Shown: one piece after another, positions 2,488-50,249 of the stretch
Layout of the letters: every line of letters begins with the position of its first letter
Position numbering within the stretch: position 1 is the first letter of the stretch
DNA from: Solirubrobacteraceae bacterium
GTDB lineage: Bacteria; Actinomycetota; Thermoleophilia; Solirubrobacterales; Solirubrobacteraceae
DNA length: 64,000 nt
Reading direction: 5' to 3'
NCBI GenBank assembly: GCA_035294545.1
Contig: DATGKS010000068.1
Coordinates: forward strand, 1,389 to 65,388
Position numbers and translations under genes: made by a program
Notes under the pieces: model-generated
What the model saw: the letters and a program-made list of their open reading frames with translations, nothing else
Databases searched by the model: none
What the model was told of the DNA's origin: nothing

Positions 2488-3871
2488 CGCGCCGGGCCGC
2501 GGCGTGGTCGACGATCGGCTTCGGGTAGTCGCGTCCGATGCGGCAGTTGGCCTGCCGCTGCACGGCGTCGGGCATCCGCCACGGCTCGGCGAGGTGCTCG
2601 TCGGGCACCTCGGAGAGCTCAGGCACGTGGTGGCGCACGTACGCGCCGTCGGGATCGAAGCGTCGCTGCTGGACGGCGGGGTTGAACATGCGGCGGAACG
2701 CGGGCTGCGGATCGGCGCCGACCGAGGCGATCCACTGCCAGTTGCCGTTGTTCGAGGCCTCGTCGCCGTCGAGCAGCAGGCGCATGAACCAGCGCTCGCC
2801 CCAGCGCCAGTCGATGCCGAGATCCTTGCTGAGGAACGAGCCGGCGATCAGCCGCGCGCGGTTGTGCATCCACCCCTCGCGGCGGAGCTGGCGCATCGCG
2901 GCGTCGACCGCCGGGAACCCGGTTCGCCCCTCGCACCACGCCTCGAAGCGCCGTGGCGCTCGACTCCAGCGCAGCGTTCCGCGGTAGCGCTCCTGAAGCT
3001 CCTCGTCGACGACGGCGGGGAAGTGGGCGAGCACGTGAGCGAAGAAGTCGCGCCAGCAGAGCTGCCGGCGATACGCGGCGCCGCCAGGACCGGTCCGCTC
3101 CTGCGCCCGTTGCTCAAGCTCGCGCGCGGACAGGGAGCCGAAGTGCAGGTAGGGCGAGAGGCGCGAGACCCCGTCGCCCGCGAGCAGGTCGCGTCCCTCG
3201 GCGTACCCGTCGATCGGGCCGTCGATGAACCGTCGCAGCGCCCGCCGCGCCGCGCGCTCCCCGCCCGGCGCCGGCTCAGGGACCTCCTGGCGCAGACCGA
3301 GCGCCGCGAGCGTCGGCAGCTCACCGGTCGGCGGCCCACCGGCCGGCGACGCGCCCAGGCCCGGCAGGGTCCGCGGCGCGGGGAGCACGTCCCGGCGCGG
3401 TCGTCGCAGCCAGCTTCGGTGAAACGGCGTGAACGTCGTGTAGGGCTCCTCTGCGCCGGTGAGCACGTCCTGGGGCGCGTCGACCGCGAATACTCCGGGA
3501 TGGGCGATGACCCGCACGCCGTCGCGGGCGAGCGCCGCGGTGACGGCCGCCTGGCGGCGACGCGCGAACGGGCTCACGTCGGCGGTGAGGTGCACCACGG
3601 TCGCGCCGGTGCGCCGTGCGAGCTCCGGCAGCTCGCGCTCGGGCCGGCCACGGCGCACGACGAGCCCGCTGCCTCGGGCGCGCAGCGCCTCGTCGAGCTC
3701 GGCCAGGCACTCGAGCAGGAACTGGGTGCGCGGCCCGGACGCGTGCCGGCCGCCGAGCAACCGGTCGTCGAAGCAGAACACGGGAATCAGCGCGTCATCG
3801 CGGCGGGCGGCGTGCAGCGCCGGATGGTCGTGCAGGCGAAGCTCCCGCCGGAGCCAGAGCAGCGCGGTCAT
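2441..3871 (-). CDS. phr: Deoxyribodipyrimidine photolyase
   Basis: 476 aa from ATG 3871 (MTALLWLRRELRLHDHPAL...). The FAD-binding C-terminal signature is LLDGDEASNNGNWQWIASVGADPQP. The 646-aa track ORF is this gene plus a spurious upstream extension. Confidence 0.9.
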   Translation of the reverse strand: MTALLWLRRELRLHDHPALHAARRDDALIPVFCFDDRLLGGRHASGPRTQFLLECLAELDEALRARGSGLVVRRGRPERELPELARRTGATVVHLTADVSPFARRRQAAVTAALARDGVRVIAHPGVFAVDAPQDVLTGAEEPYTTFTPFHRSWLRRPRRDVLPAPRTLPGLGASPAGGPPTGELPTLAALGLRQEVPEPAPGGERAARRALRRFIDGPIDGYAEGRDLLAGDGVSRLSPYLHFGSLSARELEQRAQERTGPGGAAYRRQLCWRDFFAHVLAHFPAVVDEELQERYRGTLRWSRAPRRFEAWCEGRTGFPAVDAAMRQLRREGWMHNRARLIAGSFLSKDLGIDWRWGERWFMRLLLDGDEASNNGNWQWIASVGADPQPAFRRMFNPAVQQRRFDPDGAYVRHHVPELSEVPDEHLAEPWRMPDAVQRQANCRIGRDYPKPIVDHAAARRDALERYRDASRRGRG

Positions 3872-14661: not shown

Positions 14662-15433
14662 CGCTGCCCTCCAGGTGCTCGATGATCAGGCGGTTGACCT
14701 CCTCGGCGCGCTCGACGCTCGCGAGGTGCGAGCCCGGATCGAGCAGCTCGAAGCGCGCCCCCGGGATCGCCGCCGCGATCCGCTCGCCCTGCGCCGGCGG
14801 GATCGCGCGGTCCTGGGCGCCGGCGATCACGAGCGTCGGGGCGCGGACCGCGCCGAGGTCCGCGACGACGTCGTGGGTGGCGACCGCTTCGCAGCAGCCC
14901 GCGTAGCCCTCGACCGGGGTCTCGGCGATCATCCGCCGGTGGGCGGCGACGACGTCGGGGTGCGCGGCCGCATACGGCGCCGTGAACCAGTTCGCGACGA
15001 CGGCGTCGGCGATCGGCTCGGTCGCGCCGGCGGCGCGGACGGTCCGGGCGCGCTCCCGGAAGGCGTCCGGGTTGAGCGTGTCAGGCGCGCTGCAGATGAC
15101 GACGAGGCGGCCGAGCCGCTCCGGGGCGTGGATCGCGAGCCACTGGCCGACCATCCCCCCGATCGACACGCCCGCGTAGTCCGCCCGCGCGATCCCGAGC
15201 CGGTCCAGCACCCCGATCACATCGCCTCCGAGCTCCGCGATCGTGTACGGCCCCTCCGGCGCCGGCGAGCCGCCGTGGCCGCGGTGATCGAAGCGGATCA
15301 GTCGTCGCGCGGCCGAGAGCGCCCGCACCTGCGGGTCCCACATGGCAAGCGTCGTCCCGAGCGAGCCGCCGAGCAGCAGGACGGGAGCGTCGGCCGGCCC
15401 GTCGGCAACGTGATGGAGCGCGACCGGGCTCAT
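14654..15433 (-). CDS. pcaD: 3-oxoadipate enol-lactonase
   Basis: 259-aa alpha/beta hydrolase with the GVSIGG nucleophile elbow. 8-nt overlap with pcaC. Confidence 0.85.
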   Translation of the reverse strand: MSPVALHHVADGPADAPVLLLGGSLGTTLAMWDPQVRALSAARRLIRFDHRGHGGSPAPEGPYTIAELGGDVIGVLDRLGIARADYAGVSIGGMVGQWLAIHAPERLGRLVVICSAPDTLNPDAFRERARTVRAAGATEPIADAVVANWFTAPYAAAHPDVVAAHRRMIAETPVEGYAGCCEAVATHDVVADLGAVRAPTLVIAGAQDRAIPPAQGERIAAAIPGARFELLDPGSHLASVERAEEVNRLIIEHLEGSDG

Positions 15434-15530
15434 CGCGGCCTCGCCTCGTGGGCGGCGAGCGCGCGGTCGACGAGCGGGCTCACCGCGGCCTCGCCTCGTG
15501 GGCGGCGAGCGCGCGGTCGACGAGCGCGCC
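15421..15530. repeat. Tandem duplication (2 x 50 bp) of the pcaB-stop / pcaD-start junction
   Basis: 15431-15480 versus 15481-15530 are 47/50 identical by direct count. Confidence 0.9.
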
Positions 15531-17968: not shown

Positions 17969-18748
17969 TCAGCGGTTGACGAGCTCCCGCAGCGCGCGGA
18001 GCTCCTCCTCGGTGGCGGGCGGTGTGCGCGCGAGGTCCTCGGCGACGCGGAGCGTCCAGCCGGTCGCCGCGCGCACGTCCTCCACCTCAACCCCCGGGTG
18101 GATCTGGGTGAGCGTGAGCTCGGGCGCCTCGGCGGGATCGAGCTGCACCGGCCGGAGCACGCCAAGATCGGTGACGACCGCGGTTGGGCCGGCGCCGGTG
18201 AACCCGAGGCGCGTGCGGTCCCCGGCGGCGTCGCCGAACCCGACCGTCGTGCGGAAGTCGAGGCGCTCGACGAACGTGCGCGGCGAGTGCGGAGCGATCA
18301 CGACGACCTCTTGGCAGCAGGCGGCGATCTCGGGCGCGCCGCCGGCCCCGGGCAGGCGCGTGCGGGGGCGGGCGTAGTCGCCGATCACGGTCGAGTTGAG
18401 GTTCCCGTGGCGGTCGACCTGGGCGGCGCCGAGGAACGCGACCTGGACGCGGCCGGTCCCGATCCAGTAGTTGAACATCTCCGGGACCGAGACGACCGCA
18501 TCGGCGGTCTCCGCGAGCTCGCCGTCGCCGATCGACAGCGGGATGCGATACGGCTTGGCGCCGATCGTCCCCGACTCGTAGACGAGCACGAGCTCGGGGT
18601 TGTGGACCATGCGCGCGAGCAGCGCCGCGGTGCTCGGCCGGCCGACGCCGATGAACACCGAGCGGGCGTCGGTGAGCAGGCGCGCGGCGACGATCGTCTG
18701 CAGCTCGCCCGTCGTCGCCGGGGTGAGGTCGGTCGCAGTCTCGGTCAT
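17969..18748 (-). CDS. pcaJ: 3-oxoadipate CoA-transferase subunit B
   Basis: 259 aa from ATG 18748 (MTETATDL...). Contains the CoA-transferase B motif LVYESGTIG. An in-frame GTG at 18796 is an alternative start. Confidence 0.85.
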   Translation of the reverse strand: MTETATDLTPATTGELQTIVAARLLTDARSVFIGVGRPSTAALLARMVHNPELVLVYESGTIGAKPYRIPLSIGDGELAETADAVVSVPEMFNYWIGTGRVQVAFLGAAQVDRHGNLNSTVIGDYARPRTRLPGAGGAPEIAACCQEVVVIAPHSPRTFVERLDFRTTVGFGDAAGDRTRLGFTGAGPTAVVTDLGVLRPVQLDPAEAPELTLTQIHPGVEVEDVRAATGWTLRVAEDLARTPPATEEELRALRELVNR

Positions 18749-18830
18749 CGGGTTACGGTCGCGTCCCGGGGGTCGGTCGTCTCGGTCACCCGGCACCCCG
18801 TCCCTGGCGCAGCGCGCTCGTTTCGGTCAT
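18745..18830 (-). repeat. Three start-like units spaced exactly 41 nt apart at the pcaI/pcaJ junction
   Basis: ATG 18830, GTG 18789 and ATG 18748 each begin (A/G)TGACCGA(A/G)AC. Read directly on the minus strand. Confidence 0.85.
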
Positions 18831-19642
18831 CGCGTCGCACCCTCCGACAGCACGTGGTCGTTCATCCAGGCGGTGAACTCGTCGCGGTCGCGGCTGAGGG
18901 TGTCCCAGAACCGGTAGAAGTCGTTGTCGCGCGTCGTGATCCCCGCCGCATAGGAGGGCTGTGAGCCGCCCGGGGCCTCGGCGACCGCGTCGATCACCCA
19001 GCCCGGGATCACGACGCCGCCGGGTCGCGGCTCGAGCGTGTCGACGATCCGCTCGACCGTGACGAACGAGCGCTCGGCGCAGAGCACCGCCTCCTTCTGC
19101 ACGCCGGGGATGCCCCACAATTGCACGTTGCCGTCGCGGTCGGCCTCCTGGGCGTGGACGATCGAGACGTCGGGGCGGAGAGCCGGCACGGCGGTGAGCG
19201 TCTCCCCGGTGAACGGGCAGGAGATCTCCCGGACGTTCGTGCGCTCCCGCAGGTCGGTGCCCACGTAGCCACGCATGACCGCGAACGGCAGCCGGGCCGC
19301 GCCGGCCGCGTAGCGGTTCGCCATGCCGGCGTGGCTGTGCTCCTCGATCTCGATCGCCCGCGGCCAGCCGTGCTCGATCGCGTCGCGGAAGCGGTGCAGC
19401 GACCCGACCCCCGGGTTGCCGCCGTAGGAGAACACGAGCCGGCGGGCGGCGCCCATCCCGATCATCTGGTCGTAGAGGATGTCGGGGGTCATGCGGATGA
19501 GCTCCAGCTCGGTCCGTCCCTGGCGCAGCACCTCGTGTCCGGCGGCGAACGGGATCAGGTGCGTGAAGCCCTCAAGCGCGACGGAGTCGCCGTCGTGCAC
19601 GAGCGCGGCGACCGCGTCGGACAGGGTCGTGATCTCAGCCAC
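18827..19642 (-). CDS. pcaI: 3-oxoadipate CoA-transferase subunit A
   Basis: 271 aa from GTG 19642, preceded by GGGAGG. CoA-transferase family I alpha subunit (VALEGFTHLIPFAAGHE, SYGGNPGVG). Confidence 0.85.
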   Translation of the reverse strand: MAEITTLSDAVAALVHDGDSVALEGFTHLIPFAAGHEVLRQGRTELELIRMTPDILYDQMIGMGAARRLVFSYGGNPGVGSLHRFRDAIEHGWPRAIEIEEHSHAGMANRYAAGAARLPFAVMRGYVGTDLRERTNVREISCPFTGETLTAVPALRPDVSIVHAQEADRDGNVQLWGIPGVQKEAVLCAERSFVTVERIVDTLEPRPGGVVIPGWVIDAVAEAPGGSQPSYAAGITTRDNDFYRFWDTLSRDRDEFTAWMNDHVLSEGATR

Positions 19643-21679: not shown

Positions 21680-24040
21680 TCAGGCCGCGGGGTCGGGCGG
21701 GCTTGTGCCGTAGCCGGAGACGCGCGGGCCCGTGCCGGGGCCGGACGCGCGCAGGCGGGTGACGAGCTCGCCGGCGCGGGCGGGCTGTTGGACGCCCGGG
21801 CCGCTTGCGCCGGTGGCGGGCGCGGTCGCGCGGCCGCCGCGGCGGGCGGCGCGCCCGCCGGTCGGGCCGTGGTCGTCGGGCGAGCGGCGCGGCCGGACGG
21901 GGATGAGCGCGATCAGCCCGCCGATCGCCGCGATGATCGCGCCGAGCCACAGCCAGGTGACGAGCGGCGAGACCTCGATCAGGAACTGGGTCGGCCACGG
22001 ATGCGTGACCCAGCGGTCGGTGAGCTCCTGCACGGCGCGGTCGCGGAGCTGGAAGACGGCGGCGAGCTTCTGCATCTTCACCCGCAGCGGCAGCTTCGCC
22101 GCCTGGACCGCGTTGATCGCGCGCGCGAAGTCGCGATCGCCCCTGGCGATGATCGGGGCGAGCGGCTGGAGGTTCGCCGAGATCACGACCCAGATGTCGT
22201 GGGTGAGCCCGGCGTCGAGGCCGACCGTCGACTCGTCGGAGGCGCCGAGGCTCGTCTCGAAGAAGCGGCCGAGCGGCGCGCTCGAGGTTGCGGACGGGTA
22301 GACGCCGTAGACGGTGCGCAGCGTCGTCACCCGGTGCCCCGCGCGCGAGACGCGGATGATCGCGCCGAACGCGAGCTTCTGCGGGGTCGCGGCCGCCACC
22401 GGTCGCACGTACGTGAACGTGTACCCGTCGCTCCGCACGCTCTGGCCGGGCGCGAGCATCGCGCGGCGCTGGTGCTGGAACGACGTGGAGGCCGCGACGC
22501 CGACGAGCGCGATCACGACCCCGAGATGGACGATGTAGCCACCGTAGCGCCGCCGGTTGCGGGAGACGAGCCGCGTGAGCGCGAGCGGCCCGGGCTCACC
22601 GGCGCCGCGGCGGCGCACGCGCGTGCCCCGGACGAACTCCTGCACGACGGTCGCGACGACGAAGGCGGCGGCGCAGAACATCGCGAGCGCCCCGGTATGT
22701 CCGCTCGCGCCGGGGACGAGCAGGAGCACGACGAGCGCCACGAGGCCGGCGGCGAGCGGGAACGCGAAGTTCGAGCGGAGCTTGTCGAGCGACATCCGCC
22801 GCCACGGGATGATCGGCGCGATCCCGGCGAGCGCGACGACGGCGACCGCGAGCGGGTCGATGAACGGCAGGAACGCCGCCTGGCCGACGGTGATCTCGTT
22901 GCCCGTCAGCGCCTGGGAGATGAGCGGGAAGAACGTCACCCAGAAGATGACGAGCGTGAGCGCGACGAGCACCATGTTCTGGGCGACGAACATCGCCTCG
23001 CGCGAGAAGATCGAGGCGATGCTCGCTTTGGACTTCAGGCTGTCGTAGCGCCAGAGCACGAGCCCGATCGAGCCGAGCGTCATCACGCCGACGATCACCA
23101 CGAACGCGACGTCGAGCGTCGGGTCGGGCACGAACGCGTGGATCGAGGAGAGGACCCCCGAGCGCACGAGGAAGTCGCCGACCATCGCCATCACGCCCGC
23201 GAGCATCACGAGCGAGACGTTCCAGACGCGGAGCATCCCGCGCTTCTCCTGGATCATGATCGAGTGGATGAACGCGGTGGCGACGAGCCACGGCATGAGC
23301 GCGGCGTTCTCCACCGGGTCCCAGCCCCAGAAGCCGCCCCAGCCGAGCTCGGTGTAGGACCAGCGCGCACCGAGCACGATGCCGATCCCGAGGAACAGCC
23401 AGGCCCCGAGCGCGAATCGCCGTGTCACCGCGATCCATTCGCTGTTCAGCCGGCCCGAGACGAGCGCGCCGACCGCGAAGCAGAACGGGATCAGCATGAG
23501 CGTGTATCCCGAGTAGAGCATCGGGGGGTGGACCATCATCGTCGTGTGGCGCAGCAGCGGGTCGAGGCCCGCGCCCTCCGCCGGCGCCGGCGAGCTCGTC
23601 ACGAACGGGTTGGCCATGAACGTGTTGAGCGTGAGGAAGAACCCCACGAGCAGGAACAGCGTCGCCTGCGCCCAGGGGACGACCATGCGGATCTTGTTGC
23701 GCGTGAGGAACAGCGCGAGGCTCGACCAGGCGCTGAACAGCAGCACCCAGAGCAGCAGCGAGCCCTGCTGCGTCGACCAGATCGCCGCGACCCGGTAGAG
23801 GAACGGCGTCGTCGACGAGGAGCCGTCGGCGACGATGTTGTAGGAGAAGTCGTTGCCGACGAACGCCGCGTCGAGGATGACGAACGCGACGAGCGAGATG
23901 AGCGCGAGCGCGTACATCGCGCGGCGGCCGGAGTGGATCCACGCCTCGTCGCGCGCGCGGCCGCCGTACAGCGACGCGCCGAGCCCGTACACGGCGGTGG
24001 CGAAGCCGAGGATCAGCAGGAGTCGGCCGACGGATGCCAT
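21680..24040 (-). CDS. ccmF: Cytochrome c-type biogenesis heme lyase CcmF
   Basis: 786 aa, polytopic, with the WWD motif WGGFWGWDPVEN. Confidence 0.9.
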   Translation of the reverse strand: MASVGRLLLILGFATAVYGLGASLYGGRARDEAWIHSGRRAMYALALISLVAFVILDAAFVGNDFSYNIVADGSSSTTPFLYRVAAIWSTQQGSLLLWVLLFSAWSSLALFLTRNKIRMVVPWAQATLFLLVGFFLTLNTFMANPFVTSSPAPAEGAGLDPLLRHTTMMVHPPMLYSGYTLMLIPFCFAVGALVSGRLNSEWIAVTRRFALGAWLFLGIGIVLGARWSYTELGWGGFWGWDPVENAALMPWLVATAFIHSIMIQEKRGMLRVWNVSLVMLAGVMAMVGDFLVRSGVLSSIHAFVPDPTLDVAFVVIVGVMTLGSIGLVLWRYDSLKSKASIASIFSREAMFVAQNMVLVALTLVIFWVTFFPLISQALTGNEITVGQAAFLPFIDPLAVAVVALAGIAPIIPWRRMSLDKLRSNFAFPLAAGLVALVVLLLVPGASGHTGALAMFCAAAFVVATVVQEFVRGTRVRRRGAGEPGPLALTRLVSRNRRRYGGYIVHLGVVIALVGVAASTSFQHQRRAMLAPGQSVRSDGYTFTYVRPVAAATPQKLAFGAIIRVSRAGHRVTTLRTVYGVYPSATSSAPLGRFFETSLGASDESTVGLDAGLTHDIWVVISANLQPLAPIIARGDRDFARAINAVQAAKLPLRVKMQKLAAVFQLRDRAVQELTDRWVTHPWPTQFLIEVSPLVTWLWLGAIIAAIGGLIALIPVRPRRSPDDHGPTGGRAARRGGRATAPATGASGPGVQQPARAGELVTRLRASGPGTGPRVSGYGTSPPDPAA

Positions 24041-33238: not shown

Positions 33239-34873
33239 TTACCGGCGCGCGCGGGGGCGCAGGCGGGCGCGGAGCGCCTTGCGGTCGATCTTGCCGACGG
33301 GCGTGAGCGGGACCGCGTCGACGATGTGGATCTCCCGCGGGTACTTGTAGCCGCCGATCCGCTCCTTGGCCCAGGCGATGAGCTCCCGCGGGGCGAGCGT
33401 CGATCCCGGCGTGAGCGCGACGAACGCGACGACCTCCTCCCCGTGGCGGAGGCTCGGCGCGCCGACGACGCCGGCCATCGCGACCTCGGGGTGCTCGGTG
33501 AGCGCGTCCTCGACGTCGCGCGGATAGACGTTGAAGCCTCCGCGGATGATGAGGTCCTTCTTGCGGTCGACGACGAACAGGTAGCCGCGCGCGTCCTGGT
33601 AGCCGAGGTCGCCGGTGTGCAGCCACCCGTCGCGGATCGCGGCCGCGGTCGCCTCCGGGGCCCGCCAGTAGCCGCGCATGACGCCCGGGGAGCGCACGCA
33701 GATCTCGCCGATCTCGCCCGGAGGCAGCGGCCGCCCCTGCTCATCGCGGATCTCGAGCTCGGTCCCCGGCACCGGCACCCCCACCGAGCCGATCCGCTCG
33801 CGCCCAACGGGGCTCGAGGAGATGAGCGCCGCGGTCTCGGTCATCCCGTAGCCCTGGCGGATCTTCGTCCCGGGCAGCCGCGCGACCAATGCACGCTCGG
33901 TCTCCTCCGGGAGCGGCGCTCCGCCCGAGGTGAGGTAGCGCAGGGACGAGAGGTCGTAGTCCTCCAGCGGGCAGCCGAGCAGCAGCTGGATCATCGTCGG
34001 CACGACCGAGCTCTGCTGCAGCTCGTGGTCCTGGACGGTCTCGAGGAACTCGATCGGCTCGAACCAACGGAGCAGCACGGTGAACATCGGCTCCTCGGCG
34101 TGGAGGCCGGCGACCGTCACGAGCAGTCCGTAGGCGTGGGAGAGCGGCAGCGTGGCGAGCACGCGGGTGACCCCCGGCTGGTGGGCGGAGCGGTAGGCGG
34201 CGTGGCCCGTGTAGTGCAGGCTCGCGTGCGAGAGCATGACGCCCTTCGCGCGTCCGGTCGTGCCGCCCGTGTAGAGCAGCGCGGCGAGATCGTCGTCGTC
34301 GCGGTCGACGATCGGAGCGGGGTCGGCCTGCTCGAGCTCCGAGAGCGTCGCCCCGGCGGCCGCCGCCGCGCCGCCCGCCGCCGCCCGGAGCGCCTCGCCC
34401 TCCGTCGCCGCGCCGAAAGGCGCCGCCTCGGTGCAGAGCACGTGGCGGAGCTCGGGTAGGCCGGCGCCGGCGGCCCGAACCTTGTGCAGGAACTCGGGCG
34501 TCGTCACGACCGCGCGCGCCCCCGAGTCGGCGAGCACGTGGCGGAGCTCCGCCTCGCCGAGCAGGAACGTCACCGGCGTCACGACGAGCCCGGCCCGCCA
34601 GGCGGCCTGGTAGACGATCGACACCTCAGGACAGTTGGCCATGCAGACGACGACCCGCTCGCCCGGGGCGAGGCCGAGCCCCGCGAACCCGCCCGCGAGC
34701 CGCGCCGCACGCTCGGCGAGCGCGGCCGCCGAGTGAACTCGCCCCTCGAACAGGAGCGCGGGATGGTCGCCCCGTCGCTCGAGGTCCTCCTCGGCGACGC
34801 GAGCGAGATGCCGCGGTCCCCGGAGCGAGCCGTCGGCAGGCGACGTGGGGACCGGTTTCCGGGAAGCGGTCAT
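33239..34873 (-). CDS. AMP-dependent long-chain acyl-CoA synthetase
   Basis: 544 aa. AMP-binding motifs LLYTGGTTGRAKGV, GYGMTE and WLHTGDLG. Confidence 0.9.
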   Translation of the reverse strand: MTASRKPVPTSPADGSLRGPRHLARVAEEDLERRGDHPALLFEGRVHSAAALAERAARLAGGFAGLGLAPGERVVVCMANCPEVSIVYQAAWRAGLVVTPVTFLLGEAELRHVLADSGARAVVTTPEFLHKVRAAGAGLPELRHVLCTEAAPFGAATEGEALRAAAGGAAAAAGATLSELEQADPAPIVDRDDDDLAALLYTGGTTGRAKGVMLSHASLHYTGHAAYRSAHQPGVTRVLATLPLSHAYGLLVTVAGLHAEEPMFTVLLRWFEPIEFLETVQDHELQQSSVVPTMIQLLLGCPLEDYDLSSLRYLTSGGAPLPEETERALVARLPGTKIRQGYGMTETAALISSSPVGRERIGSVGVPVPGTELEIRDEQGRPLPPGEIGEICVRSPGVMRGYWRAPEATAAAIRDGWLHTGDLGYQDARGYLFVVDRKKDLIIRGGFNVYPRDVEDALTEHPEVAMAGVVGAPSLRHGEEVVAFVALTPGSTLAPRELIAWAKERIGGYKYPREIHIVDAVPLTPVGKIDRKALRARLRPRARR

Positions 34874-49667: not shown

Positions 49668-50249
49668 CCGCCACGCTCCTCGTCCTGGGCGTCGCCGCCG
49701 GCGCCTGTCCGGATCCGGTCCACGTCGTGGTGGAGCGCGGTCACGGGATCCGCTGCCCCGGGGACCATCACCGGCTCGTCTCCGGATCGACTTCGACGTC
49801 GTCTGAGCGGCACGGTTCGACGCGTGCCGCAGGGTGCGCCGGCGCCTCCGTCACAGCCGGCGCGGCGTACGCTTCGGCCTGGAGATGCGCCATCGCGCTG
49901 CGTGGATCGCGACGGACCTGTACTGCATGGTGGTCGCCCGGGGCGGCGGCGTCCTTGCGGCGTCGTCGCCGTCCACGACCGGCGGCCCCGCGGCGGCGCG
50001 CTCCGACGGACCGGGCACACGCGTGCGCGCACGCGACGACGCGTTCGACGTGGGCTTCAGCCGGGACGGGCGATCGATCGCGCACCCGCGACAGACCGGC
50101 TGTCGCGGTACGGCGGTCCGCGCCGATGGCCCGGGTGGCATGATCGCGCTTGCCCACTCCAGGAGCCGCGACGTCAGCTGCGATGCCCCTCTCAGCTGGC
50201 CGGATGCAATCGCCTGGCGCCAGTCGCGTCCACACGGGCCGTCCTGAGC

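What the first reader, a model, noticed from the sequence alone, without database searches (positions are those of the whole stretch)
18745..18830. A chain of two 14-codon mini-ORFs, each with a 4-nt stop/start overlap, links pcaI to pcaJ
All positions are on the minus strand.
- pcaI stops at TGA 18829-18827. An ATG at 18830 overlaps that stop (ATGA).
- That ATG opens MTETSALRQGRGAG-stop. Its TGA at 18788-18786 is overlapped (GTGA) by a GTG at 18789.
- That GTG opens VTETTDPRDATVTR-stop. Its TGA at 18747-18745 is overlapped (ATGA) by the pcaJ ATG at 18748 (MTETATDL...).

The three starts are exactly 41 nt apart, and each begins (A/G)TGACCGA(A/G)AC. The pcaJ 5' junction therefore appears to have been tandemly copied twice. 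Each copy kept both a start and an in-frame stop, so ribosomes could be handed on from stop to start. I do not know of a described multi-step relay junction like this.
Basis: seen in the sequence. Interest (0 to 1): 0.7.

Follow-up and report, generated by a model that had tools for sequence, protein, structure and literature searches.

The report
Two-step mini-ORF chain linking pcaI and pcaJ
In one soil bacterium, two enzyme-subunit genes that normally overlap by four bases are separated by an 82-base insert carrying two extra copies of the second gene's start signal, forming two tiny reading frames that could pass ribosomes from one gene to the next; this is a rare two-step form of a known kind of translational coupling.

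Summary
pcaI's TGA (18829-27) is overlapped by ATG 18830. A 14-codon ORF ends at a TGA overlapped by GTG 18789. A second 14-codon ORF ends at a TGA overlapped by the pcaJ ATG 18748. The starts are 41 nt apart and share RTGACCGARAC (4 hits in 64 kb, 0.15 expected).

Of 153 related Solirubrobacterales loci, 131 have a direct 4-nt pcaI/pcaJ overlap. The window carries about 82 extra nt. One-step versions recur in relatives (units of 20, 23, 26 and 29 nt). One is a near-perfect 29-nt tandem duplication of the junction. Only the window has two steps.

The start/stop chain follows from arithmetic: a unit of length 3n+2 that contains ATGA puts each TGA in frame with the previous start.

A clean 41-nt tandem duplication is only partly supported. 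The 11-nt cores match 9-10/11, but the unit tails match at chance level, and part of unit 1's tail resembles a segment inside pcaI.

Strong Shine-Dalgarno pairing precedes both mini-ORF starts (-10.0 and -9.8 kcal/mol) but not the pcaJ ATG (-4.1, the background level). This fits a termination-reinitiation relay but is untested.

Chains of coupled small ORFs are already described for mycobacterial MIRU arrays. I rate this a new variant of a known kind, of moderate interest.

The parts
18827..19642 (-). pcaI-like CoA-transferase subunit A (271 aa). Its TGA stop is at 18829-18827.
   Evidence: ORF list. PF01144 CoA_trans on the called gene. 78-92% identical to PcaI of 80 Solirubrobacterales loci. 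Weak match to TIGR02429 (35 bits, cutoff 128.5).
18841..18845 (-). GGAGG Shine-Dalgarno, 10 nt upstream of ATG 18830. This is the ancestral pcaJ ribosome-binding site.
   Evidence: Duplex energy with the 16S 3' tail is -10.0 kcal/mol. The same GGAGG/GAAGG with 10-nt spacing precedes the true pcaJ ATG in L001, L002 and L003.
18786..18830 (-). Mini-ORF 1 (unit 1): ATG, 14 codons (MTETSALRQGRGAG), TGA. Its start overlaps the pcaI stop (ATGA).
   Evidence: Its first 16 nt (ATGACCGAAACGAGCG) match the true pcaJ start of L001 (ATGACCGAGACGAGCG) at 15/16. It is therefore the orthologue of the ancestral pcaJ start.
18745..18789 (-). Mini-ORF 2 (unit 2): GTG, 14 codons (VTETTDPRDATVTR), TGA. Its start overlaps the stop of mini-ORF 1 (GTGA). 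Its stop is overlapped by the pcaJ ATG (ATGA).
   Evidence: It shares TGACCGAGAC plus GACCGACC with the pcaJ 5' end, with a 3-nt indel between them.
18794..18805 (-). AGGGACGGGGTG, a Shine-Dalgarno-like stretch upstream of GTG 18789.
   Evidence: Duplex energy -9.8 kcal/mol with a bulge. About 5.6% of background windows reach -9.8 kcal/mol or better.
17969..18748 (-). pcaJ-like CoA-transferase subunit B (259 aa). The homology-supported start is ATG 18748, which has no Shine-Dalgarno.
   Evidence: The public callers' product is the 259-aa form (P0001). Homologues begin MTET.../MSET... 11-14 residues before the conserved GELQTIVAAR. SD energy is -4.1 kcal/mol, against a background mean of -4.0.
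18794..18796 (-). Alternative in-frame GTG, which would give a 275-aa PcaJ.
   Evidence: SD energy is -4.6 kcal/mol. The extension PGDRDDRPPGRDRNP has no counterpart in the 22 closest homologues inspected.
18820..18835 (-). Repeat core, copy 1 (ACGCGATGACCGAAAC).
   Evidence: the repeat finder family D1.
18779..18794 (-). Repeat core, copy 2 (GCCGGGTGACCGAGAC).
   Evidence: the repeat finder family D1.
18738..18753 (-). Repeat core, copy 3 (ACCCGATGACCGAGAC). This is the working pcaJ start.
   Evidence: the repeat finder family D1.
19514..19529 (-). Internal pcaI segment GCTGCGCCAGGGACGG (codes LRQGR). It is identical to 18813-18798 in the tail of unit 1 and is a possible template for part of the insert.
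   Evidence: 16-nt exact match that extends to 24/27 with one gap. 7 of 150 shuffles reach the score against the whole window. 2 of 2000 reach it against the operon on the same strand.

Best explanation
The pcaI-pcaJ junction of this Solirubrobacteraceae genome started as the usual 4-nt ATGA stop/start overlap. It then acquired an insert of about 82 nt made of two 41-nt segments. Each segment begins with a copy of the pcaJ initiation region (CG-RTG-ACC-GAR-AC).

The pcaJ start contains pcaI's TGA, and 41 = 3n+2. Each copied TGA therefore falls in frame with the start 41 nt upstream. This yields two 14-codon ORFs joined head to tail by 4-nt overlaps. That much is shown.

Inferred mechanism: ribosomes finishing pcaI, or loading at the ancestral GGAGG, translate mini-ORF 1 and terminate at GTGA. 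They reinitiate on mini-ORF 2, terminate at ATGA, and reinitiate on pcaJ. This would carry translational coupling of the two subunits across a 78-nt gap that would otherwise break it. The peptides themselves are by-products.

The insert is probably a mosaic from replication slippage or template switching at the junction, not two clean rounds of 41-nt duplication.
For: - Anatomy confirmed.
- The motif is non-random: 4 hits against 0.15 expected.
- Ancestral state: 131 of 153 related loci have the direct NTGA overlap. The anchor-to-anchor junction length is 150 nt in the window against a mode of 62.
- Unit 1's head is the orthologue of the true pcaJ start and keeps its GGAGG at the conserved 10-nt spacing.
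- The process is caught in action in relatives. L083/L084 carry a near-perfect 29-nt tandem duplication of the junction (mini-ORF MTATKDVASR = pcaJ N-terminus + pcaI C-terminus) flanked by CCACCAA microhomology.
- Older one-step versions occur in L003, L081, L001, L002, L093, L163 and L164.
- L039 carries an in-frame 27-nt duplication instead.
- SD energies: mini-ORF 1 -10.0, mini-ORF 2 -9.8, pcaJ ATG -4.1, background -4.0. Other operon genes (pcaI, pcaH, pcaG) score -11.5 to -11.6.
- The cores are conserved at 9-10/11 while tails are at chance, 7-13/30 (Fisher p 0.03 to 0.0002). Both periods stayed exactly 41 nt.
- The junction RNA is less structured than shuffles (z = +2.1).
- No Rfam family, promoter or terminator is found there.
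- Published experiments show coupling collapses at gaps of about 20-38 nt and that overlaps are enriched for heteromeric complex subunits (PMC10666635). They also show 13 of 14 overlapping pairs are strictly coupled (PMC6728339).
- Short ORFs that deliver ribosomes are discussed in PMC12548453.
Against: - There are no expression or ribosome data, and the two-step form is seen in a single genome.
- Each reinitiation step is likely below 100% efficient, so a two-step relay should lower PcaJ relative to PcaI.
- The last step lacks an SD, and in E. coli SD removal cut reinitiation by 60-90% in most pairs tested (PMC6728339).
- An in-frame GTG (18796) exists.
- SD-independent initiation at ATG 18748 cannot be excluded. 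The pcaB start as called also scores only -1.9 kcal/mol.
- The unit tails are not demonstrably homologous. They are more diverged than 4-fold sites between the window and its nearest relatives (p4 = 0.27-0.43), so the origin is unresolved.
- In the one-step relatives an SD lies inside the mini-ORF just before pcaJ. There the mini-ORF may be irrelevant to pcaJ expression.
Confidence: 0.55

Rival explanations
1. Neutral relic. The insert is a tolerated scar of junction slippage. pcaJ is translated by independent, SD-less initiation at ATG 18748, and the mini-ORFs contribute little or act only as decoys.
For: The start/stop chain is an automatic result of a 3n+2 unit and needs no selection (arithmetic). 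The junction is unstructured (z = +2.1), which favours direct initiation. At least one other called operon start has no SD (pcaB, -1.9 kcal/mol). In L001 and L002 the upstream overlap has already been lost. ORF chains arise by chance in this GC-rich DNA.
Against: The cores of all three units, including start and stop, are conserved while the tails are randomised. The 41-nt period is intact twice. The strong SDs sit before the mini-ORFs, not before pcaJ. No relative shows a duplication of the 3n+1 class; the three loci whose overlapping ORF runs out of frame into pcaJ are not that class (L043/L045 look like 1-nt nanopore indels, L053 is a mis-anchored pcaI hit).
Confidence: 0.3
2. PcaJ starts at the in-frame GTG 18796 and carries a 16-residue N-terminal extension. 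The mini-ORF arrangement is incidental.
For: The 275-aa ORF from GTG 18796 is open. A weak AGGGA lies 5 nt upstream.
Against: SD energy is only -4.6 kcal/mol. The extension PGDRDDRPPGRDRNP has no counterpart in 22 close homologues, which all start near MTET/MSET. The public callers' product is the 259-aa form.
Confidence: 0.07
3. The insert is a small mobile or dispersed repeat (MIRU-like) that targets ATGA junctions, not a local duplication.
For: The unit size (41 nt) falls in the 40-100 bp range given for MIRUs (PMC2734929). MIRUs are reported to insert at start codons with -4 coupling (PMC12548453). The unit tails have no clear local homologue.
Against: No other copy of either unit occurs in the 64-kb window or in 160+ related loci. 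The unit heads are copies of the local pcaJ start and match orthologous pcaJ starts. Relatives carry different, locally derived units.
Confidence: 0.05
4. Assembly or sequencing artefact: the repeat number or frames are wrong.
For: The source is a short-read metagenome-assembled genome. Some related nanopore MAGs show likely 1-nt indels at this junction (L043 and L045).
Against: The three units differ from each other at more than half of their positions, so an assembler cannot have created or collapsed them. The junction is identical in a JGI contig (100% over 3780 nt) and an ENA contig. Three exact 4-nt overlaps would need coordinated errors.
Confidence: 0.03

Closest known systems
Translational coupling by termination-reinitiation at 4-nt ATGA/GTGA stop-start overlaps (Huber et al. 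2019, PMC6728339; Huber et al. 2023, PMC10666635)
   Same: Each of the three joints is a canonical -4 overlap between co-directional ORFs. The two genes encode subunits of one heteromeric enzyme, which is the class enriched for such overlaps.
   Different: There are three consecutive overlaps with two non-genic 14-codon ORFs between the genes, instead of one overlap. The last joint has no SD.
Mycobacterial interspersed repetitive units (MIRUs) in operon intergenic regions, e.g. senX3-regX3 (Supply et al. 1997, as summarised in PMC12548453 and PMC2734929). The detail that tandem MIRUs each carry a small ORF overlapping its neighbours is from my own recollection of that paper.
   Same: Tandem units of 40-100 bp lie between two genes of an operon. 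Each carries a small ORF coupled to the next ORF with -4 spacing, so downstream expression is little disturbed.
   Different: MIRUs form a dispersed, apparently mobile family (41 sites in H37Rv). Here the units derive from the local pcaJ start, are not found elsewhere in the sequence available, are strongly diverged from each other, and occur in a different actinobacterial class.
Short upstream ORFs that 'deliver' ribosomes to a downstream gene, including two-cistron expression designs (reviewed in PMC12548453)
   Same: A short ORF with a good ribosome-binding site ends in an overlap with the start of the real gene. The peptide has no role of its own.
   Different: The known cases use one short ORF at the 5' end of a message. 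Here two are chained inside an operon, between two coupled genes.

Membership tests
Translationally coupled overlapping ORF pair (termination-reinitiation) | Co-directional ORFs whose stop and start codons overlap by 4 nt (NTGA) | tested here: met
   ATGA 18830-27, GTGA 18789-86 and ATGA 18748-45.
Translationally coupled overlapping ORF pair (termination-reinitiation) | Translation of the downstream ORF depends on translation of the upstream ORF | not testable with these tools
   This needs reporter fusions with premature stops, or ribosome profiling. The SD distribution is only indirect support.
MIRU-type intergenic repeat | Tandem 40-100 bp units between genes of an operon, each with a small ORF coupled at -4 spacing | tested here: met
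   Two 41-nt units, each a 14-codon ORF with -4 overlaps at both ends. Size range from PMC2734929.
MIRU-type intergenic repeat | Dispersed at many loci of the same genome (mobile family) | tested here: not met
   No second copy of unit 1 or unit 2 in the 64-kb window or in the related loci. Only 64 kb of the genome could be searched.
MIRU-type intergenic repeat | Sequence similarity to MIRU consensus units | not tested
   No MIRU consensus was on hand. The unit heads are instead homologous to orthologous pcaJ starts.
Leader-peptide attenuator or regulatory upstream ORF | Alternative RNA hairpins or a terminator coupled to leader translation | tested here: not met
   No terminator-like site. 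The fold is weaker than shuffles, z = +2.1. No Rfam match with E below 0.89.
PcaIJ beta-ketoadipate:succinyl-CoA transferase (family I CoA-transferase) | Two adjacent PF01144 CoA_trans subunits inside a protocatechuate-pathway cluster | tested here: met
   PF01144 on both genes. Neighbours are a 4-hydroxybenzoate 3-monooxygenase (NF006091, 584 bits), protocatechuate dioxygenase beta and alpha, and a Lyase_1 gene.
PcaIJ beta-ketoadipate:succinyl-CoA transferase (family I CoA-transferase) | Scores above the curated cutoffs of TIGR02429 (pcaI_scoA) and TIGR02428 (pcaJ_scoB) | tested here: not met
   35.4 bits against a cutoff of 128.5, and 37.2 against 243.55. JGI names the homologues glutaconate CoA-transferase subunit B. 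The pcaI/pcaJ names therefore rest on gene context.

The most novel reading that the evidence does not exclude
The two-step chain is maintained by selection as a ribosome relay. Overlapping stop/start junctions would then expand under a rule: only 3n+2 duplications (relay) or 3n duplications (in-frame extension) survive. The number of relay steps would set the subunit ratio PcaJ:PcaI.

A related possibility: the insert has put pcaI and pcaJ in the same frame, separated by a single leaky-context TGA (UGA-C). It could therefore be a natural intermediate toward, or a low-level source of, a fused alpha-beta CoA-transferase.
Probability: 0.2. Interest if true: 0.6.

Novelty: new variant of a known kind. 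Interest (0 to 1): 0.4.

Why it matters
If the relay works, it is a natural construct in which ribosomes must perform three consecutive termination-reinitiation events, the last one without a Shine-Dalgarno. The efficiency and SD-dependence of reinitiation could then be measured in a native context.

The comparative series in this gene pair is also useful. It runs from a direct overlap, through a fresh 29-nt duplication and older one-step forms and an in-frame duplication, to the two-step form. It shows how 4-nt gene overlaps can come apart by slippage without uncoupling the genes. It also predicts which duplication lengths should be tolerated.

For annotation, the practical lesson is that the ribosome-binding site and the annotated start can sit 82 nt apart.

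Tried and rejected
- Tandem Repeats Finder on the junction found nothing. The units are too diverged for it.
- I tested the tails of the units for homology by alignment against shuffles. U1/U2 and U1/U3 are not significant and U2/U3 is borderline at p = 0.06. I therefore dropped the clean 41-nt duplication model.
- I looked for closer relatives that might show intermediate unit numbers. Scans of genome contigs and metagenome contigs gave nothing above about 87% PcaJ identity.
- The protein search found P0003, whose N-terminus (MTETATDLPP...) is almost the window's. No contig is on record for it. It comes from a protein-level assembly of SRR5579875. Its cluster mate P0121 has a different N-terminus.
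- An Rfam scan and a promoter/terminator scan of the junction found nothing. RNA folding showed no stable structure.
- A mechanical search for other ORF chains in the window returned about 30 hits, mostly in non-genic frames. It is not usable as evidence either way.
- The original MIRU paper (Supply 1997) is not in the library, so its details are cited from a review and from memory.
- I rejected functional micro-proteins. The mini-ORF peptides in relatives are unrelated in sequence (MMKATTQ, MSRGGTR, MTAEDARR, MNEEAAR, MTATKDVASR).

Full report
**1. The observation**

Reading the minus strand and listing ORFs confirms every coordinate in the finding.
- pcaI (18827-19642, 271 aa) ends ...SEGATR-TGA, and its stop lies inside ATGA at 18830-18827.
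- ATG 18830 opens MTETSALRQGRGAG. The stop of that ORF lies inside GTGA at 18789-18786.
- GTG 18789 opens VTETTDPRDATVTR. The stop of that ORF lies inside ATGA at 18748-18745.
- ATG 18748 opens pcaJ (259 aa, MTETATDL...).

The repeat finder reports a 16-nt element (ACNCG-RTG-ACCGARAC) in three copies, spaced 41 and 41 nt. RTGACCGARAC occurs four times in the 64-kb window against 0.15 expected, and three of the four are here.

Two cautions apply. Tandem Repeats Finder sees no array. Chains of overlapping ORFs are also frequent by chance in this GC-rich DNA (about 30 in the window). The significant feature is the repeated motif at exact spacing between two real genes.

**2. Source and genes**

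The window comes from a metagenome-assembled Solirubrobacteraceae genome. The 259-aa protein is on record as 'MAG TPA: CoA-transferase [Solirubrobacteraceae bacterium]' (P0001).

The junction is base-identical in a JGI contig (Ga0070737_10001733, 100% over 3780 nt) and in an ENA contig. Because the units differ from each other at most positions, an assembler cannot have manufactured them.

Both genes carry PF01144. They sit between a 4-hydroxybenzoate 3-monooxygenase gene and protocatechuate dioxygenase beta, alpha and a Lyase_1 gene. The pcaI/pcaJ names are therefore reasonable by context. However, the proteins score far below the TIGR02429 and TIGR02428 cutoffs and belong to the glutaconate-CoA-transferase-like branch (JGI names).

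**3. What relatives show**

I fetched 160 related loci and four more through protein look-ups. Of the 153 relatives in which both genes could be anchored:
- 131 have the pcaJ start overlapping the pcaI stop directly (NTGA);
- 9 have an adjacent start;
- 8 have one mini-ORF between the genes;
- 5 are unclear. Two of these are nanopore MAGs with likely 1-nt indels.

The distance from PcaI residue 262 to PcaJ residue 15 is 150 nt in the window. The mode is 62 nt, and all but three relatives fall in the range 35-97 nt. The window therefore carries roughly 82 extra nt and is the only two-step case.

Unit 1 is the orthologue of the ancestral pcaJ start. ATGACCGAAACGAGCG matches L001's true start, ATGACCGAGACGAGCG. 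The GGAGG lies 10 nt upstream in both, as it does in L002 and L003.

**4. A recurrent process**

L083 and L084 contain a near-perfect 29-nt tandem duplication of the junction: ACCAAGGACGTCGCGTCGCGATGAC(A/G)GCC, twice. It is flanked by CCACCAA microhomology. It gives the mini-ORF MTATKDVASR, which is the pcaJ N-terminus fused to the pcaI C-terminus.

Older one-step forms, with different units, occur in:
- L093 (26 nt);
- L003 and L081 (20 nt);
- L001 and L002 (20 and 23 nt, with the pcaI stop moved upstream);
- L163 (23 nt; same sample as the window, 91% PcaJ identity);
- L164 (17 + 20 nt, where the pcaI C-terminus VNEAGR is itself a former unit).

These are shown. Close relatives L082, L165 and L166 keep the simple overlap. 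L039 has an in-frame 27-nt duplication that simply lengthens the PcaJ N-terminus. The mini-ORF peptides are unrelated to each other, so the peptides are not the point.

**5. Arithmetic**

pcaJ begins ATGA, with pcaI's stop embedded in it. Any local copy of the start placed 3n+2 nt downstream therefore puts its TGA in frame with the preceding start.
- A 3n+2 unit gives a relay mini-ORF.
- A 3n unit gives an N-terminal extension.
- A 3n+1 unit gives an upstream ORF that runs out of frame across the pcaJ start and should be harmful.

The first two classes are seen and the third is not. 'Each copy kept a start and an in-frame stop' is therefore a consequence of the 41-nt period. It is not separate evidence of selection.

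**6. Origin of the window's insert**

A clean 41-nt triplication is not supported.
- In register, the 11-nt cores match 9-10/11. The 30-nt tails match 7-13/30, against about 10 expected from base composition (Fisher p = 0.03 to 0.0002).
- Gapped tail alignments are not significant, apart from a borderline U2/U3 result (p = 0.06; shared GACCGACC after a 3-nt indel).
- The tails are more diverged than 4-fold degenerate sites between the window and its nearest relatives (0.27-0.43).
- Part of unit 1's tail (18813-18798) is a 16-nt exact copy, 24/27 with one gap, of an internal pcaI segment at 19529-19514. Both read LRQGR. The match is reached by 7 of 150 shuffles against the whole window and by 2 of 2000 against the operon strand.

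The insert therefore looks like a mosaic from slippage or template switching. Alternatively it is an old duplication in which only the cores and the period were held. I cannot decide between these two.

**7. How it most likely works**

I computed Shine-Dalgarno pairing to the 16S 3' tail:

| Start | Energy (kcal/mol) |
|---|---|
| pcaI | -11.5 |
| pcaH | -11.6 |
| pcaG | -11.6 |
| mini-ORF 1 (ATG 18830) | -10.0 |
| mini-ORF 2 (GTG 18789) | -9.8 |
| GTG 18796 | -4.6 |
| pcaJ (ATG 18748) | -4.1 |
| background mean | -4.0 |

About 5.6% of background windows reach -9.8 kcal/mol or better.

The junction RNA folds less stably than shuffles (z = +2.1). It contains no Rfam family, promoter-like site or terminator-like site.

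Published experiments bear on the mechanism.
- 13 of 14 overlapping pairs tested are strictly coupled (PMC6728339).
- Coupling nearly vanishes once the gap reaches about 20-38 nt (PMC10666635).
- Overlaps are enriched among subunits of heteromeric complexes (PMC10666635).

A 78-nt gap would therefore uncouple pcaJ from pcaI, unless ribosomes cross it by translating the two mini-ORFs and reinitiating at each -4 overlap. That is the mechanism I favour, with confidence about 0.55 for the functional claim. I am much more confident of the structural and evolutionary description.

The main rival (about 0.3) is that the insert is a tolerated scar and that pcaJ initiates independently without an SD. 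Minor rivals are:
- a start at GTG 18796. This is disfavoured because no homologue has that extension and the callers' product is the 259-aa form;
- a MIRU-like mobile repeat. No other copies were found;
- an artefact (argue against it).

**8. Comparison with what is known**

Each joint is a textbook -4 overlap. The idea that a short ORF exists only to deliver ribosomes to the next gene is established (PMC12548453).

Tandem MIRU units in mycobacterial operons are the described precedent for several coupled small ORFs in series between two genes. The same review says MIRUs insert at start codons with -4 coupling. The detail that consecutive MIRUs each carry an overlapping small ORF at senX3-regX3 is from my recollection of Supply et al. 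1997, which the library does not hold.

The window fails the MIRU criterion of dispersal, and its units are locally derived. It works like a MIRU array but is not a member of that family. I rate it a new variant of a known kind.

**9. Side observation**

The insert length of 82 nt is 3n+1. That cancels the -1 offset of the ancestral overlap, so pcaI and pcaJ are now in the same frame with a single TGA between them. Read-through, or one point mutation, would give a PcaI-26-residue-linker-PcaJ fusion. This is speculative but cheap to test by proteomics.

**10. Verdict**

The feature is real and non-random, and in large part explained. It is a two-step version of a recurrent junction-duplication process that preserves stop/start coupling. 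Its function as a ribosome relay is plausible but untested. Interest is moderate (0.4).

Noticed in passing
window 18745-18830 (-): pcaI and pcaJ are in the same reading frame, with only TGA 18829-27 and no other stop between them. Read-through of this UGA-C, or a single point mutation, would produce a PcaI-26 aa (PKRARCARDGVPGDRDDRPPGRDRNP)-PcaJ fusion.
   Followed up: partly
window 18798-18813 (-) and 19514-19529 (-): The tail of unit 1 holds a 16-nt exact copy (24/27 with one gap) of a segment inside pcaI about 700 nt upstream. Both are read as LRQGR. This may be a templated patch. Significance is modest: 7/150 shuffles against the whole window and 2/2000 against the operon strand.
   Followed up: partly
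window 18485-18498 (+) vs 18774-18787 (-): The head of unit 2 (GACCGAGACGACCG) has a 14-nt perfect inverted match inside pcaJ about 260 nt downstream. The pcaJ arm is conserved in many relatives. It could be chance (blastn-short E = 0.006-0.07).
   Followed up: no
L083 and L084, junction about 30-60 nt upstream of the pcaJ match: A near-perfect (28/29) 29-nt tandem duplication of the pcaI stop/pcaJ start junction, flanked by CCACCAA microhomology. It gives the chimeric mini-ORF MTATKDVASR and is a young example of the process.
   Followed up: yes
L039, pcaJ 5' end: An in-frame 27-nt duplication of the pcaJ start (MTDADPAAG-MTDANAGG...). Here the same kind of event lengthens the protein instead of making a mini-ORF.
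   Followed up: partly
L164 (GCA_035713425.1 DASSZT010000110.1), junction before locus position 601: Three junction copies in a row: GTGAACGAGGCGGGACG / ATGAACGAAGAGGCGGCACG / ATGACC. The pcaI C-terminus VNEAGR is itself a former unit, read in frame, and is followed by the mini-ORF MNEEAAR.
   Followed up: partly
L118 (Ga0318562_10002969), between pcaI and pcaJ: A 79-codon ORF of unknown origin sits between the two genes with 4-nt overlaps at both ends (insert of about 230 nt). L027 has a 24-codon ORF in the same position.
   Followed up: no
L043 and L045 (nanopore-based MFD MAGs): The ORF starting at the pcaI stop runs out of frame into pcaJ. In L045 a 1-nt change in a C-run would restore MTISRKPPEAP...ASASEVQ. 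These are probably homopolymer indel errors, not biology.
   Followed up: partly
L162 (ENA k141_420400), positions 2793-3037: This contig is identical to the window up to position 2793. After that it differs at 139 positions in an ungapped comparison. The cause could be an indel, a strain variant or a chimeric contig end inside pcaH.
   Followed up: no
window 49771-49854 (-), 22516-22599 (-), 15433-15483 (-): The mechanical chain scan lists other short ORFs (28, 28 and 17 codons) with 4-nt overlaps between two long open frames. They may be mis-assigned starts or further one-step junctions.
   Followed up: no
window 33834-33846 (-): The fourth copy of ATGACCGAGAC in the window (GGATGACCGAGACCGCG). 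From the surrounding sequence it appears to lie inside a coding region and is not a junction repeat.
   Followed up: partly
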